From positions 130,944,001 through 131,008,000 of the forward strand of contig OZ024745.1 of assembly GCA_964016885.1 (NCBI GenBank): a stretch of DNA of 64,000 bases. Reading direction: 5' to 3'. This document shows, piece after piece, positions 447 through 63,665 of the stretch. Made by a program: the position numbers and the translations under genes. Source of the stretch: Eledone cirrhosa (lineage: Eukaryota). The stretch's first letter is position 1. Every line of letters begins with the position of its first letter. The notes beneath the pieces were generated by a model. It worked only from the letters and a program-made list of their open reading frames with translations, was not told the DNA's origin and ran no database searches.

Positions 447-1690
447 TTATCCATATAGCTTGAGGAAAGTTCCCGTCCTTAGGTGTCTGCAAGCACAGAA
501 TAAGTCGGCCCTTCTGTTTAATAGCTTGGTTCCGCCATGTAGTATCTCGAGTATCTCACTAAGACAGAGGTAGCAAATACCAGATCCGCATCTGTCTGGG
601 GGAACCTTTCTAACCACGGACCAGACCAGAGAGTGCGGGGTCTTTTCAAGTTTGAGCTTCCAGATCAATTCTGAAAGAGCCGTACATTTCCTCTTATATA
701 TTCTGTTAAAGGAATGGCGATGGTTATACCACCTATATTTGAAGCTCGTCGCTGTGGATGCTATGTAGTGGTGCTCCGAGTTATGGGTTGTGACCTTGCA
801 CCTGTAGACTACGTTTTTCGTCATGCGTTCATTACTAAGGGGCCATAGTGATGGGTCTCTGCAATTACATGACTTCTTAAGCTCCACCATATGTACCGCG
901 TGGTTACCATCACTCGGGGTTGGCTGGGTAGCCTCCGCAATCAGCACAGGGTCGTTGGGTTCCAGTGTGCTAGTTGAGCCTGTCCGGGTTCTGGTGCGTC
1001 CCGCGTGCAGGTTCAGTTGGGTAGCTCCGGGGTTTACGGTGGTATTAGAGGCAGTGAGCCTATTCCTATTTATGCCAGCTGTGTGCTGGGCTACGGAGCG
1101 TGGGGTTGAGTAGGAAAGTTTCACCGTGTGTCTGTTGAATATTTTATGGTACTTGTGGGTCCTAGGGAAACATTTATCCAGTACTCTAAAGAATGTTCTA
1201 TCCAGGCTGGTACGTAGACCCACCGAGTACTGAGGGTTATACCATGTGACCTTCCTGGTCCTATTCTTGCTGGGTTGTTGGGTGTCCGCCGTGGGCCATC
1301 GCGTGGTTGTACACAGCTCAGGTCTAGCTCGGTTGGTGTCACTCAGGTGTGCGGAGCGGTCACTATCATGAGGGTTATATGGGCCCACCGTGGGGCTATA
1401 AACCTGCAAGGTGTGGCCTCCCTGCTCAATTAGGGTTCGGCGGGTGGTGGGGCTGGTGCAGGGGTGCCTATGCTCCGCAGCACAGTAGTCTTCAGCGTTG
1501 TAGGTATTAGACCGGTGGGGTATGCGGGATCTTCTACCAGGGGTGGTGACGGATAGGGGTCTGGGAGTGTTACTACTGGTCACCGAGGTATTAGGTGGGC
1601 GACTCATGCCCCTGAGGGTATTGGTCCGGGGTACCCTTGGGTCATCTCGATCATGTCCCTTAGGGTTGTAGCTGATTCTATGGCTGTGGG
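447..1690 (-). mobile_element. Penelope-like retroelement 3' fragment (linker plus GIY-YIG endonuclease), probably Hydra-type
   Basis: ORF 447..1820 has WYNPQYS...KIFNRHTVKLSYS, CNCR, VVY...YIAST...FKYRWYNH, CYLC and CRH motifs; its N-terminus is only read-through of a (TA)n tract. Confidence 0.8.
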
Positions 1691-1746
1691 ATATATATAT
1701 ATATATAGCTGGCATAAATAGGAATAGGCACACTGCCTCTAATACC

Positions 1747-1808
<62 letters not shown>

Positions 1809-1978
1809 TAAAATTTTCACTCCAACTAATTAGTTTCTGTAATGGGATAAAGATAGTTACGTAACGTAACGTAACTGTCGAGAATTCATTACGTCATCAT
1901 ATATACATATACATATATATATATACTGTATATATATATACTGTATGTATGTATATATATATAAATATTGTATGTATG

Positions 1979-7973: not shown

Positions 7974-8037
7974 CATACAGAAGATCCCGTTAAGGGTGAA
8001 AGCAGCGATTCTTTGCTTAAACTTTAATGTTATTTTA

Positions 8038-9591
<1,554 letters not shown>

Positions 9592-9601
9592 TATATATAT
9601 A

Positions 9602-10345
<744 letters not shown>

Positions 10346-14982: not shown

Positions 14983-15478
14983 ACAGGCATTGGCATTGCT
15001 TTATATCTGGAGATCTCTCTGCACTTGTCGTCACATGGTACCATGTCGTCACATGGTACCATGTGATGACAAGTGCAGAGAGATCTCCAGATATAAAGCA
15101 ATGCCTGTGCCGTGAAGCTTTTATAGTGAGCAAAGGCACTGCACAAAGCCAGTCCCACTCTCTTAACCAAGATGATATTTACCAAAAAGAAGAACAAGTC
15201 AACATCATTGGATACCATCAGAATTGCAGGTGTTATATCAAAGTTTTCCTTCTCCTAGAATTTTGCCTTGACAAATGCTAAGGGATCATCTCTCCCGGTG
15301 ATTTTGGATGGCCATTGACTCTTAAGAGCTCATTTGCCCTTTGACAGGTTTTGTTTTTAGTCCTGCAGGATGTCCAAAGTCACCCTCCTCACCAAGAAAC
15401 CTTGGTGGGGTTGCCAGTTTAGTCGCCAACGACCCAACCATGGGACAGGTTGTACTGGGATACATGTTACCAGTAGCA
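14983..15478 (-). mobile_element. RTE-related non-coding retroposon with structured 5' leader; 3' part replaced by a fold-back
   Basis: Minus strand has ggagaaggaaaactttgatataacacct, resembling RTE 5' UTR motifs; high similarity to 36465-36757. Confidence 0.65.
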
Positions 15479-15557
15479 TACATACATACATACATACATA
15501 CATACATACATACATACATACATACATACATACATACATACATACATACATACATAC

Positions 15558-18500
15558 AAAGTATTATATGAAGCATACAAACAATCTGAACCCCAAAAGT
15601 TCGGTTTTATGCAAAGGCTAAAAACTTTATGGAACTCCAAACACCCAGAATTAGACTTTTCTCCAAAGCATTTAAATGAACAGGCAAAACGTATCATTAG
15701 ATGTAAATTGATACATCTAACGGAATTGAGTGATACTACAAATACAGCCCTTGTAGACAACCACCCCACCTCCACTGACAGACAAAGAGAATGGCCAGCT
15801 AAATCTAACAGTGAACAGCTCATCAACAATTTTGCTGAAATCCATCCCACTTCCACTGAAGAACAGCGAGAAAGGTCAGCTGACTCTAGTAGTAATTGTC
15901 ACCACATCAACAACGAGGCTGAAATTCATGACTCTACTGAACAAACAGAGCACCAAAAACTTGTGGGCTCCCTACAAGTGATATGGAACGATATGTTTCA
16001 AGAGATACACAGCCTTAATGTGAGTGACAGACCATACAACACTAGAGTCAGTAAAGAACCCACTAAATTGGAATTGGAAGCGGTGAACGAAATAGCTGGC
16101 AGTTATCTGAAGACTATACGATCTAAAGGTGTAGAAACGACATTTGAAACGCTTAATGTTTTGTTATATGTTTCAGCTGTCACATTGCTATCATATAACA
16201 CACATCTAAAACCACGCAATCAAGATACAAGCAGAAAGCCTGAACCAGCGTGGATGCGAAATTTAAAATCCAAAATTTTGTTCCTGAGACGAAGTATCTC
16301 ACACATCGCAGTCGTTATGAAATGCAACATAGAGAGCAACTTCACACGACACCAGGAAGACCTAAAGAAAAAGTTAGAGAGACGATTTGGAGATACAAAA
16401 TTTAAAACTTTGAACTCTAAATTACACCAGTTGAAACAACAACTCACAGCTACAACAGAAAGACTGAAATATAAGTCAACAGCACATAAACGACAAGTGC
16501 TAAATAGATTGTTTGCCAGAGATCCTAAATCAGTTTATCGCAGCTTCGGTGGCAAAAGCTCAATCTCTGTAAATGACACCCCTTCAAAGGAACAGGTTGA
16601 GAGCTACTGGAGATCTGTATGGGAAACGGATGACGGATTCAACAGACAAGCTAATTGGCTAAAAGAACTGGAACAGGACTACTGCCCACATGTCCAGACA
16701 AAACAATATGACATAGATGGGTCAATACTGGAAACAGCTCTACAGAAAATGTCGAATAGGAAATCGCCAGGCCCAGACCTCATTACAGGATACTGGTTGA
16801 AGAATTTCACTTTCTATCGGCAAGATCTCATACGGCTGTTTACAGAAACCATTAAGGGCACACAAGAACTGCCCAGATGGTTATCAACTGCCTCTACTCT
16901 CCTCATTCCCAAAAATAGCCAAACCACCCTTGCTAAAAATTACCGCCCAATAGCCTGCCAAAACATCAGGTATAAATTATATACTGGGTGCCTTAACCTG
17001 TTCTTATAGGATCACTGTGCTACCAACAACATCATAACACCTGAGCAAGCTGGTGGAAAGAGGGAGGTGTGGGGTTGCATAGATCACCTACTAACTAACA
17101 AAATGATTCAGGAAAAAACAACAAAGAATCGCAGAAACATGACTGTCGTGTGGCTGGACTATCAAAAAGCATTTGATAGTGTACCTCATGGGTGGATTGT
17201 TAAGGCTTTACAGTTAGCTAAAGTCCCACAACCATTGGTAGCTGCTGTTGGACGCCTGACCAAGAACTGGTACACCAGTTTGATCCTTAGAGGTGAGAAG
17301 GAGCAGGTTAAGACTGATAAGATACATTACCAGAAGGGCATCTTTCAGGGTGATAGCTTGTCAGTGCTACTCTTCGTTCTCTCACTGAATCCACTATCTT
17401 ACCTACTCAGGAAACAAGGTGGACAAAGAGGTGGGCCCAGAAGTATCTCCCATCTTTTCTTTGTTGATGACCTGAAGTTGTATGGGCCAAATATCAATGA
17501 CATCAAGAAACAATTGGACCTCATTACACAATTTTCAACCGACATCAAAATGAAATTTGGTGAGTCCAAGTGTGCATATTTGGCAGTAAAACGTGGAAGA
17601 GCTGTGCCCTCCTCTAGAAATCTAGAGATGAACGGCCTGACAATACAACCTCTGCAGTCAGGTGACAACTACAGATATCTTGGACAGGATGAGAATGTCA
17701 GATATGATGGACCCATAAATAAGGAGAGAACCAGAACTGAATACCTCAGAAGAGTAAAGAAAATATGGTCATCAGAACTGTCAGCATACAACAAATACAT
17801 TGCCCACAATACTTATGCTGTGCCAATTCTAACGCCAACATTTGGCCTACTGAACTGGTCATTGCAAGAACTAAGTGAGATGGATGTTAGAACTCGAAAA
17901 CTTCTCAGTGTTACTGGGAACTTTAACATCAATGGTGATGTGGATAGGCTATACTTCTCACGCAAGGAAGGTGGCCGGGGTCTAAAATCAATATTAACAA
18001 CATATGAGACCCGGATAGTAACACTGAAGCAACACCTTCAACAGAAGAAAAAGGTTGGCAACCATCTTGCCCAGGTTTATGACCATGAAAAAAGAAATAT
18101 CATTAGAATAGCGACTGATCTGGAGGAGAGATATGGAATAAAGCCGGATATAAATCTCTCACCCAGAGAAATCGGAAGATCCTATTCAATGTTCAAACAA
18201 GATAAAAAAATTGACCAATTTACAGAAAAAGTTGTGCATGGATACTTGAGGCGTAAAACACTGACCATAGAGGGGATAAACCACTCAAAAAGCCTGGCAT
18301 GGAGTTCCGACAAGTTTATGACATCACACCTTGAGGGATATCTCTATGCAATACAGGAACAAGAACTCCCTACCAAATATCTGCTGCACAAAAGAGGAGG
18401 GCCAGCAGCTGACAATAAATGTAGGCTATGTAAAACAAAGATCGAGGATGTAAGCCACATTGTTGCTAGCTGCGAAAGAATGTCATCTCGCTACTACCTC

Positions 18501-19070
18501 CCCATGAGACACGATGTGATAGCTAGAACCATCTGGAACGCACTTCGGAAAACAAAATTAACAACAAACGAGGAAGAATATATTGAGACAGATGGCACTA
18601 AGGAATACTGGTGGAACCTGAAAATAAAAACTGCCACCAAATTAAAGCACAACCGGCCTGATATTGTAGTTTGGGACCACACATTGAAAACGTGTTCTGT
18701 TGTGGAGATCAGCTGTCCACTTGATGTAAACGTTGTCAGAAAAATACAGGAGAAGGAGGACATCTACGGACCATTGATGAGGAGTTTACAAATCCAGTAT
18801 CCAAGATATACCTTTAGCTTCATACCCATCATTATTGGTGCTACGGGTTATATACCAACCCGCTTGGACCAAAGTATGACTGAACTTGGATTTGCGGACA
18901 AAAAGCGCAGCTCCCTAATTCATAGTCTGCAAATGGCTGCGATAGCTGGCACCTTCAAAATTTGCAAAACATTCTTGCGATTCAAGGGATGACAATTTCT
19001 TTTCTTTTACAACCTTGCCACCAGGAAGGTGGCCGGTCAAAAAAATATACTCGAAATTAAGAGAAAGAGA
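15558..19070 (+). mobile_element. R4/Dong-clade non-LTR retrotransposon, near full length, inserted in (TACA)n
   Basis: ORFs 15609..17009 and 17067..18992 are in frame, split by one TAG; RT motifs KSPGPD, NYRPI, WLDYQKAFDSVPH, GIFQGDSLS, FVDD; CCHC knuckle, RHD, PD-(D/E)xK restriction-like endonuclease. Confidence 0.93.
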
Positions 19071-21201: not shown

Positions 21202-22494
21202 CTTTGAGTCTCATCATTGATGTTCTTTAACTGGAAAGTTTGTTGGAATGAATATCAAGCCACTACCTGCAGCCTCAGATATTCAGGACGTATCGGAGGG
21301 TTCTTGCTGTTCCCATCAAGCATGCCTTTTGAAGCGTTCCAAAAGGCGTGAAGGGGCCAATTTTCTTTAACCATCCCTGGAAACTTTTTGAGATAGTCCC
21401 TAGTGCGCCTATGACAATCGGGACCACTTTCACTTCATGGCAGTTCCAAATCCTTTTTACCTCCCACTTTAAGTCCTGGTATCGGTTAATTTTCTCCCTC
21501 TCCTTTTCTTGCACTCTCGTGTCGAATGGGCAGGCCACATCCACAATCAGGCACGATCTTTTTTCTTTGTCCAAAACCACCAGGTCGGGTCTATTGTGTT
21601 CCAGTTTATTGTCCGTCTGTATCCTAAAATCCCATAGCACCTTCACCTGATCGTTTTCTATCACCGACTCTGGCTTATGCTCATACCACTTCTCAGAATG
21701 TGGTAAATTGTTTACTTTGCATAGGTGCCAGTGGATCACCCTGCCCATCACATCATGTCTCCAGCCCTTATAGTGAGTCTGGGCTAGGTGTTTACACTCG
21801 GATACAATGTGAGCCACAGTCTCCTCTCTCTCTCCACAGATCCTGCACAGTGGGCTAGCCTCCTCCTTGTAAATATGGTGTTTCAACCACTTCGTTTTGA
21901 GGGCCTGCTCTTGCGCAGCCATTAACATTCCTTCTGTAGCCTTTTTAAGGTCTCCTCTTTTCAACGAGTTCCATGTCTGTGGATCTCTGAATTCAGTTTT
22001 CTCAAAGAAGGTACTATGAAGGGATTTTTCATGAAGGCTGCTCTTTCTCCTTGTTGTTATTTACTCCTTGGACATCCCCTGGCCTATTGTCCCCTCCTTC
22101 AGTACAATTCTGAGCATTGGCTCCTTACTATCAGTCACGTATTTGTGTAGGTTGTTTTTCTCCATCTGAACACAGTCCTCTATGCTGATAAGACCTCTTC
22201 CACCTTCAGATCTCCTTAAGTAGAGTCTATCGACATCACTCCTCTTGTGGAACATATTGTAGATAGTCAATAGCCTCCTAGTCTTCCTATCCATTTCTTT
22301 TTGTTCAGCAACATTCCATCTCAGAATTCCCGCACTGTACCTAATAATAGACACAGCTCGGGAATTTACTGCACTTATGGCATTCCTACTGTTCAGATGT
22401 GACTTTAATACGCTCCTTACTCTCCGAATGTATTCAGATCTTATCAATTCCTTCATTTTTTTGTTCTTGATGTTATCAGCCTCCAGAACACCCA

Positions 22495-22496
<2 letters not shown>
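21202..22496 (-). mobile_element. Dong-like R4-clade retrotransposon, 5'-truncated, in (TAA)n
   Basis: RLYLRRSEGGRGL, AAQEQAL, CRIC...HIVSEC, RHD, RPDLVV...DVACP; one in-frame TAA at 22061-22063; (TAA)n on both flanks. Confidence 0.9.
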
Positions 22497-22551
<55 letters not shown>

Positions 22552-22866
22552 TACTACTACTACTACTACTACTATTACTATTAACGTTCAGTGACATTAC
22601 GCTCGTGCTATATCATGGATTAATTTATCCTAAGGATTAAAACCTAGGATAAATATGTTTATTCTATTTGTGGATTGTAGAAACACATTGATTTTGAAAT
22701 TGTATATATACATATTATTAATTGCATATTCAAGGAACTATCAGTTTCATAGCTTTTGTTCATAAAGGTCTGTATTCTCCATCATCAGAAGTTGTATACA
22801 CAGCCTCTCTTCACAGATCTTCACATAGGCGTATATGAACCCTAAATACAAAGTGACTAAGTATGT

Positions 22867-36156: not shown

Positions 36157-36196
36157 TCTTATTTCTGATGAAGGACTAACGTCCGAAACGTTAAGA
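36157..36196 (+). ncRNA. Minimal hammerhead ribozyme motif
   Basis: CTGATGA a ggac taac gtcc GAAA cg TT aaga; palindromic AACGTT; weak stem I. Confidence 0.65.
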
Positions 36197-62905: not shown

Positions 62906-62948
<43 letters not shown>

Positions 62949-63151
62949 TGAGAGCTTTTGACGGGAACGAAAAAATTTGTATTCTAATCTCCCCCCACCA
63001 CGTAAAGTTTGTAAAACGGTGGCTGGTCGATGGACAGAATTGTATCGGATTCCAGTTGCTAATCACTTTACTGTGCCGGCCGTCACAAACTGTCATGGCC
63101 GTCATGGGCTGGGGTTTGGATTCTGTCGATCGATTGGTTATTGATTAGGCG

Positions 63152-63270
63152 ATACCCACTGATGAAGCCACATAAGCCGATTATGCATTGTTGCATGATA
63201 TATGCAGACAGAGGGTGCAGTGCACCCTACTGCTGCATTAAGTGTGGCCGAAACTCGAGTCCGGGAACTC
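63152..63270 (+). ncRNA. Type I hammerhead ribozyme with branched 84 nt stem II
   Basis: ccca CTGATGA a gccaca...tgtggc c GAAA ctcgag TC cggg; internal hairpins agggtgca/tgcaccct and atgca/tgcat. Confidence 0.8.
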
Positions 63271-63430
63271 TTATAGGCACCTGTTTACGTGTGTTGTATT
63301 GAAGCGAATAACTATGTGTATACTCTGGGAATGTATCTTACATTGCCTATTGAGTACGCTGAGGTACAACCGGTCCTGTCATTGATAAATATGCTGGGTC
63401 CGCCAACTCCTTATTATATATATATATATA

Positions 63431-63665
<235 letters not shown>

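What the first reader, a model, noticed from the sequence alone, without database searches (positions are those of the whole stretch)
62945..63415. Non-coding ~470 bp element with a hammerhead whose stem II is a branched 84 nt domain
Seen: intact core, GUC cleavage triplet and a palindromic CTCGAG stem III. Stem II closes with gccaca/tgtggc and carries two hairpins, including tgcag-cag-agggtgca/tgcaccct-ctg-ctgca. The element is bounded by (TA)n and has no credible ORF. Established: PLE and retrozyme hammerheads usually have short stem II, and palindromic stem III supports dimeric folding. Inference: an unusual hammerhead architecture that length-limited searches would miss, where the extra domain may regulate cleavage or recruit RT.
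Basis: partly seen in the sequence, partly recalled or inferred. Interest (0 to 1): 0.7.

Follow-up and report, generated by a model that had tools for sequence, protein, structure and literature searches.

The report
Branched-arm hammerhead in parasitic jumping repeat
This is a shortened, slightly damaged copy of a non-coding repeat present in over a thousand copies in this animal genome, carrying a hammerhead self-cutting RNA motif whose normally short arm is an 84-base branched domain that is predicted to clamp the ribozyme into shape through a small pseudoknot; cutting is untested.

Summary
Observation confirmed, boundaries wrong. The 471 bp are the 3' part of an ~843-bp ORF-less monomer with a fixed 3' end in (TA)n, ragged 5' ends and head-to-tail wrap-around: a non-autonomous Penelope-like element (non-LTR retrozyme), likely moved by Hydra-clade enzymes. 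The 84-nt three-way-junction stem II is kept in all six subfamily clusters (630 pattern hits, 0 control). Long stem II is common here: 15,050 long-arm hits (control 538) against 7,485 short (control 1,110), including two autonomous Hydra families. Hydra hammerheads found in 50 of 77 metagenome loci have 10-25 nt. Main addition: three unrelated branched families each have a G+C-rich 4-6-bp match between the junction strand and the bases just 5' of stem I, a predicted pseudoknot docking stems I and II. Three of 26 wrap-around copies start at or within 4 nt of the cut site. Against: weak covariation inside the family, no RNA data, and this copy has a broken stem I pair. This scan already noted long-arm hammerheads on other DNA of this and other genomes. 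New variant of a known kind.

The parts
62910..62944 (.). (TA)n target microsatellite, 5' flank
   Evidence: 93 of 144 insertions have a TA run at the 5' junction
62945..63415 (+). 5'-truncated copy (monomer positions 371-840) of an ~843-bp non-autonomous Penelope-like element / non-LTR retrozyme
63013..63146 (+). long rod hairpin just upstream of the ribozyme, predicted in all six subfamily majorities (-51 to -66 kcal/mol)
   Evidence: 28 of 40 changed pair states keep pairing, 19.2 expected
63148..63151 (+). GGCG, predicted 5' strand of the stem I-stem II pseudoknot
   Evidence: inferred
63155..63158 (+). stem I 5' strand (CCCA here, CCCG in 24 of 30 copies)
63159..63165 (+). hammerhead core CTGATGA
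63166..63249 (+). 84-nt stem II domain: unpaired A, stem IIa 63167-63173/63242-63248, junction 63174-63179, hairpin IIb 63180-63199, hairpin IIc 63202-63238, unpaired C
63175..63178 (+). junction strand (AGCC here, CGCC in the family majority), predicted 3' strand of the pseudoknot
   Evidence: inferred
63250..63261 (+). GAAAC core, palindromic stem III (ACTCGAGT 63253-63260) and GTC triplet; predicted cut between 63261 and 63262
63262..63265 (+). stem I 3' strand CGGG
63323..63354 (+). CTC...TTGAG segment about 60-90 nt after the cut site, at similar spacing in three Hydra-type families; candidate signal for the borrowed RT
   Evidence: inferred
63369..63415 (+). 3'-terminal hairpin and fixed 3' end, 153 nt after the cut site
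63416..63430 (.). (TA)n, 3' flank
   Evidence: 111 of 123 complete 3' ends run into TA

Best explanation
The stretch is a 5'-truncated copy of an ~843-base non-coding repeat that inserts into TA microsatellites and is likely copied by the enzymes of Hydra-type Penelope-like retrotransposons, and its hammerhead carries an 84-base branched stem II whose junction is predicted to pair with the bases just before stem I and so clamp the ribozyme. Steps: (1) shown: the monomer, fixed 3' end, ragged 5' ends, TA targeting, wrap-around copies whose two halves come from one template lineage. (2) inferred: more-than-unit transcripts fold two hammerheads together through the ACUCGAGU palindrome and cut after GUC, releasing a monomer that may be circularised. 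(3) inferred: a 3-4-bp pseudoknot (GGCG with junction CGCC) replaces the loop 1-loop 2 contact, and the two hairpins hold the junction strand 7-8 bp from the core. (4) inferred: a Hydra RT-endonuclease nicks (TA)n, primes at the fixed site 153 nt after the cut, and copies back for 0.1 to 1.7 units. My odds: element identity 0.9, cutting in the source elements 0.75, pseudoknot 0.5.
For: 3411 candidate places, best 40 at 91-94% apart from self. 26 of 144 insertions wrap past the unit end. In 17 of 18 wrap copies both halves fall in the same subfamily group, with 36 shared non-consensus bases against 4.4 expected. About 77 of 100 listed 3' ends run into TA, counted by eye. No Hydra ORF is attached at a constant place in 60 loci. 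The same three-way fold is predicted for all six cluster majorities. Stem IIa has an A-U to G-C change in 15 of 43 rows, one event. Between cluster majorities, 1 of 26 columns around the 5' core vary, against 65 of 114 and 34 of 95 upstream. Stem I and the palindrome were not forced by the pattern and are kept in the majorities, apart from one G-to-U stem I change in one old cluster. The 21 shorter-arm hits with the same stem III are mostly scattered deletions of this family, none amplified. Autonomous Hydra families X (782 aa) and Y (777 aa) have 90-92-nt arms, TA targets and 151-165 nt from cut to end. The pseudoknot match scores 12-14 in the three branched families (A, Z, E), the top scores among 25 representatives; 11 of 14 Z copies keep the GGG/CCC core intact. 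Pseudoknots of this role are documented (PMC3088659 section 7). 3 of 26 wrap copies start at monomer positions 682-686; the cut is after 685.
Against: No cleavage assay and no RNA data. Covariation inside the family is thin: 7 of 12 changed pair states in the arm keep pairing against 5.0 expected; pairs with two-sided change are not above shuffles (371 of 500); RNAalifold does not recover stem I or hairpin IIc. The active monomer fold lies 6-10 kcal/mol above the free minimum. The pseudoknot is nearly invariant within family A, drops to 3 bp in the youngest subfamily (score 9, reached by 16% of non-cognate pairs), was seen post hoc, and family E is one copy. 12 of 26 wrap copies run upstream through the cut site. 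Family X has only 1 contiguous stem I pair, so some long-arm motifs may not cut. No autonomous partner with sequence homology was found. None of 100 listed copies ends at the +60 site where many Hydra-type copies end. In a Poseidon element hammerhead cutting was not needed for insertion in vitro (PMC11167929).
Confidence: 0.6

Rival explanations
1. Same element, but the branched arm is a tolerated passenger. Stem II points away from the core, any insert that refolds its base helix survives, and the apparent pseudoknot is chance.
For: Weak within-family covariation. Hairpin IIc slides register between subfamilies. Arms of many families share little sequence. Short-arm relatives are just as successful elsewhere.
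Against: The arm is kept at 83-84 nt across subfamilies whose loci match the reference copy at only 70-78%. Deleted arms never amplified (21 hits). The same topology and a matching junction strand occur in unrelated family Z and in copy E.
Confidence: 0.2
2. The arm is a protein-binding platform: Hydra RT-endonuclease or a host factor binds it, chaperones ribozyme folding and selects the RNA for copying.
For: An Anolis Penelope hammerhead cuts only with its protein (PMC11167929). 16 of 26 arm representatives carry a YAGYR-N-YAGR motif, 1.3 expected by shuffling; the motif was read off these same arms.
Against: That motif is absent from this family and from Z. The similarity to autonomous elements lies after the cut site. 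No binding data.
Confidence: 0.15
3. The arm hides a retained intron whose removal leaves a short canonical stem II, so splicing switches the ribozyme on.
For: Penelope pLTRs retain introns next to the hammerhead (PMC4209133). An AG precedes the 3' strand of stem IIa in all six majorities. Family Y has a plausible donor and acceptor pair.
Against: In this family the only donors in the first 40 nt are GTTGCA and GTGCAT, far from consensus; families X and S and one W copy lack a usable donor. No GT..AG skip among the 15 of 20 joints shown for run X1/X4; PLEs keep introns in DNA, so this is weak.
Confidence: 0.05

Closest known systems
Animal non-LTR retrozymes (Cervera and de la Pena 2020, PMC7229834: passages and sections 14, 17 read; Li, Clavereau, Pollet 2026, bioRxiv 10.64898/2026.07.22.740005: parts 1-2 of 5 read)
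   Same: ORF-less repeat with one type I hammerhead per unit, head-to-tail copies, strongly folded (circular fold z = -6.9, 25 shuffles), co-existing with PLEs; 843 bp lies in the 51-972 bp range of Li et al.
   Different: Mostly dispersed 5'-truncated copies with at most 1.7 units among those fetched, strict (TA)n targeting, and an 84-nt branched stem II; circular RNA not shown.
Hammerheads of Hydra-clade Penelope-like elements (Craig et al. 2021, PMC8557442: passages, section 11, Files S1 and S2 read)
   Same: (TA)n targeting, extra or mismatched base at the foot of stem II, ACTC-GAGT-like palindromic stem III, position near the 3' end.
   Different: The published Hydra motifs in File S2 have loop 2 of 3-10 nt, and 50 metagenome loci have 10-25-nt domains. 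Here 84 nt and branched, with no ORF. Nearest precedent for a long arm: Selaginella PLE-X with a 29-35-nt loop 2, marked as deviating.
Pseudoknotted hammerheads (Perreault et al. 2011, PMC3088659: passages and section 7 read)
   Same: A short helix between the stem I and stem II regions fixes their parallel alignment.
   Different: There the strand comes from a terminal loop or free tail, and the repetitive type I forms were left out of two of the analyses; here it would come from the junction of a closed three-way domain in an animal type I motif.
Minimal PLE hammerheads that cut as dimers (Cervera and de la Pena 2014, PMC4209133: parts 1-2 of 4 read; Lunse et al., not held, known only through review PMC6765202 passages)
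   Same: Short stem I, extra base after A9, palindromic stem III, helix II of 7 bp.
   Different: Helix II is capped by a two-hairpin domain rather than a loop.

Membership tests
Type I hammerhead ribozyme | Core CUGANGA, GAAA and NUH triplet | tested here: met
   intact in 23 of 30 copies chosen by DNA similarity, not by the core
Type I hammerhead ribozyme | Stems I, II, III flanking the core | tested here: met
   Family majorities: 4-bp stem I, 7-bp stem IIa, palindromic stem III. The window copy itself has an A-C mismatch at the first stem I pair.
Type I hammerhead ribozyme | Site-specific self-cleavage | not testable with these tools
   Indirect only: 3 of 26 wrap copies start within 4 nt of the site.
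Type I hammerhead ribozyme | Match to an Rfam hammerhead model | tested here: inconclusive
   No hit, but three short Hydra hammerheads are missed as well.
Non-LTR retrozyme / non-autonomous PLE | No protein-coding ORF | tested here: met
   longest stop-free frame 95 aa; no constant flanking PLE ORF in 60 loci
Non-LTR retrozyme / non-autonomous PLE | Head-to-tail repeats with a hammerhead per unit | tested here: met
   26 of 144 insertions wrap; two-hammerhead loci include L015, L143, L146, L175; no array longer than 1.7 units seen
Non-LTR retrozyme / non-autonomous PLE | Expressed as circular RNA | not testable with these tools
   no RNA holder listed
Mobilised by Hydra-clade PLE | (TA)n targeting, fixed 3' end, 5' truncation, partial tandems | tested here: met
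Mobilised by Hydra-clade PLE | Sequence homology to the pLTR of a named autonomous partner | tested here: inconclusive
   No BLAST match to X, Y or other fetched loci; only motif and spacing likeness after the cut site; not all Hydra families were sampled.
Hydra clade (for autonomous family X, P0001) | RWK, DKT, CxCX5C linker, C-terminal GIY-YIG without CCHH | tested here: met
   motifs read against section 11 of PMC8557442; no tree was built
Pseudoknotted hammerhead | Helix linking stem I and stem II regions, supported by covariation or assay | tested here: inconclusive
   Cross-family match in A, Z, E; 82.6% of cells paired within A, little covariation.

The most novel reading that the evidence does not exclude
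This genome holds a class of animal hammerheads in which a closed three-way junction in stem II supplies a pseudoknot strand that docks on stem I. It arose in at least three unrelated repeat families, two of them shown to be ORF-less, and long-arm motifs outnumber the short-arm motifs of the same stem III type about two to one, so published counts of animal ribozymes miss most of them in such genomes.
Probability: 0.4. Interest if true: 0.72.

Novelty: new variant of a known kind. Interest (0 to 1): 0.55.

Why it matters
The role of Penelope hammerheads is open: they cut poorly alone and lack the usual tertiary contact. A family that keeps an 84-nt arm through several waves of amplification, with a testable 4-bp pseudoknot repeated in unrelated families, gives a direct experiment on how these ribozymes are activated. 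The census shows that descriptor searches capped at short stem II can miss most motifs of this type in a genome. Natural stem II insertions are also relevant to engineered switches, which fuse sensor domains at that position (recalled). The element class itself is known.

Tried and rejected
1) Neighbour 63431-63549 as half of a second hammerhead: rejected; it is a fixed-length ~127-bp repeat with no upstream core in the 25 loci read. 2) Rfam: nothing at gathering threshold in the window or 9 loci; only microsatellite noise by E-value. 3) Pfam finds nothing significant for the PLE proteins. 4) No RNA holder listed; four runs of unknown kind from one study were laid and show presence and the head-to-tail joint only, with no pile-up of ends at the cut site. 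5) Prediction that copies also end about 60 nt after the cut, as many Hydra-type copies do: failed, 0 of 100 listed. 6) A short-arm ancestor with the same stem III: none with 32-62-nt domains; none among the first 100 of 7,485 short hits, the rest not seen. 7) Autonomous partner by DNA homology: not found. 8) Non-circular permutation (PMC10085705 passages): not needed, strand order is ordinary. 9) Stem II lengths of 37-67 and above 96 nt were not counted genome-wide, so the length range of long arms is not established. 11) Lunse et al. 2017 is not held and one search returned an unrelated paper; that paper and bioRxiv supplements could hold long-arm variants I did not see. Ten literature searches listed no paper describing this arm.

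Full report
Observation. The domain folds as a 7-bp stem ending in a three-way junction with two hairpins (-41.9 kcal/mol; z = -6.3 for copy L003; z = -2.7 for the 151-nt window piece). Rfam finds nothing.

The element. A genome search gave 3411 candidate places. Most copies extend upstream of 62945. The unit is about 843 bp; the window holds positions 371-840. The 3' end is fixed: by eye about 77 of 100 listed ends run into TA, 5 into the next unit, 4 into an ATT run, 3 into a SINE and 11 into other sequence. Of 144 distinct insertions in my loci, which were chosen by similarity or pattern and are not a random sample, 26 wrap past the unit end, up to 1.7 units. In 17 of 18 wrap copies with at least 80 nt of overlap both halves fall in one subfamily group, and they share 36 non-consensus bases against 4.4 expected. 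So each was copied from one continuous template, either a circle or a tandem transcript; these data cannot tell which. The monomer has no ORF above 95 codons and folds far better than shuffles as a circle (z = -6.9, 25 shuffles). One exact 17-mer occurs 518 times, which at about 5% divergence implies over a thousand copies of the main subfamily (inference). This anatomy matches non-LTR retrozymes and non-autonomous PLEs (PMC7229834; bioRxiv 2026.07.22.740005).

Conservation of the arm. A pattern for the core with a GCC/GGC base and a long gap gives 630 hits against 0 control. Clustering 110 pieces on columns outside the ribozyme gave six clusters, 3-10% diverged from their majorities. All six majorities fold to the same 83-84-nt three-way junction. 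The 5' core region varies at 1 of 26 columns between majorities, against 65 of 114 and 34 of 95 upstream; the core itself was forced by the pattern for most of the older clusters, but stem I, the palindrome and hairpin IIb were not. The cut triplet is GTC, GTT or GTA (H was forced). Stem IIa has one clean A-U to G-C change (15 of 43 rows). Formal covariation is otherwise weak: 7 of 12 changed pair states keep pairing, 5.0 expected, and RNAalifold loses stem I and hairpin IIc. The 21 shorter-arm hits with the same stem III are nearly all scattered deletions of this family.

Long arms are the rule here. A pattern excluding this family at four positions gave 2183 hits against 8. A census of cores with a 4-nt stem III insert gave 15,050 hits at 68-96 nt (control 538) and 7,485 at 8-36 nt (control 1,110). 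Of 46 long hits in 40 hand-picked diverse loci, 33 have a palindromic insert, 28 a stem I of 4 bp or more, and 7 none of the expected features. Two abundant families are autonomous: X (782 aa, 90-nt arm) and Y (777 aa, 92-nt arm), in tandem and inverted arrangements. P0001 carries the Hydra-clade motifs of Craig et al.. Published Hydra hammerheads have short arms (File S2). In 77 metagenome loci of Hydra relatives, 50 had a hammerhead and all 50 had 10-25-nt domains, with 2 opposite-strand hits as control. The expansion is therefore restricted as far as sampled. The genome looks octopus-like from its size and repeats; that is my inference and was not tested.

What the branch may do. Among 26 representatives only this family and family Z folded with two hairpins; copy E (L122), not in that set, is also multi-branched. 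Z is ORF-less (743- and 989-nt units) and has no significant BLAST match to this monomer. In all three, the junction strand right after stem IIa is complementary to the bases just 5' of stem I: GGCG/CGCC, TGGGC/GCCCA and TTGGGT/GCCCGA. These are the top scores of 25 representatives, reached by 0-4% of non-cognate pairings. Perreault et al. showed that such helices fix stems I and II and raise rates by orders of magnitude. Caveats: I saw the pattern before choosing the test windows, E is one copy, the youngest subfamily keeps only 3 bp, and within the family the helix is paired in 82.6% of cells with little covariation. I give it even odds.

Does it cut? Not shown. Three of 26 wrap copies begin at positions 682, 682 and 686, and the cut lies after 685; on the local density of starts I would expect well under one, so this is suggestive only. 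Twelve of the 26 run through the upstream site uncut. The constrained active monomer is 6-10 kcal/mol above the free fold, and the palindrome gives a -12 kcal/mol duplex, which fits dimer-dependent or protein-assisted cutting as reported for other PLEs. Family X has a poor stem I, so not every long-arm motif need be active.

Who moves it? TA targeting, stem III type, the unpaired foot of stem II, 151-165 nt from cut to end (one X copy gave 410 and Z gave 191) and a CTC...TTGAG segment after the cut all match Hydra elements of this genome. No partner with DNA homology was found, and the short +60 ending of many Hydra-type copies is absent (0 of 100). The assignment is likely, not shown.

Prior work. 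Ten searches listed no description of this arm; the nearest precedent is Selaginella PLE-X with 29-35-nt loops. Lunse et al. could not be read. This scan's own notes already report long-arm Hydra hammerheads and a two-hairpin arm in a non-coding repeat of the same genome; they are unchecked and are not counted as support.

Verdict. A real feature on a decayed copy: new variant of a known kind, interest 0.55. The pseudoknot and the genome-wide excess of long arms are the parts worth testing.

Noticed in passing
window 63431-63549 (-); L061-L085: A separate ~127-bp fixed-length repeat flanked by (TA)n on both sides, 3608 candidate places, with an internal GCCGTC-GAA-ACGGC hairpin; not a hammerhead; class unknown.
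   Followed up: partly
L038, L046, L057, L058 at the unit junction; three more: A SINE-like repeat sits repeatedly, with different 5' ends, at the ATT junction between units, which suggests that the ATT run is a hot target.
   Followed up: partly
L237 and L250 (family Z): Second ORF-less family, units of 743 and 989 nt (the longer by an internal ~250-nt duplication), with a 93-96-nt branched arm.
   Followed up: yes
L118:8133-8260 (family X): Young autonomous Hydra family whose stem I has only one contiguous pair, while the 8 bases after the cut site are exactly complementary to a stretch inside the arm; unexplained.
   Followed up: partly
arms of families X, V, W, U, T, S, R, Q, P, O, N, M, K: YAGYR-N4-9-YAGR motif 13-18 nt before the arm's end in 16 of 26 representatives (1.3 expected); internal RNA motif or splice acceptor.
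   Followed up: partly
window 447-1829 (-): Decayed Hydra-type PLE fragment, 33% identical to P0001 over 271 aa.
   Followed up: partly
window 8028-8921 (+) and 9348-9385 (+): Fragment of another PLE-like ORF with a short hammerhead-like motif downstream.
   Followed up: no
window 10127-10149 (-), 36165-36189 (+): Short-arm hammerhead cores of other families; the first is of the type that dominates the short census.
   Followed up: no
window 15477-18992 (+) and 21275-22612 (-): Non-LTR retrotransposon ORFs with RT-like and C-terminal zinc-finger and nuclease-like motifs, one broken by a single stop; family not tested.
   Followed up: no
L195, L198, L199: Core matches with 93-128-nt arms closed by GCC/GGC, a further long-arm group.
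   Followed up: partly
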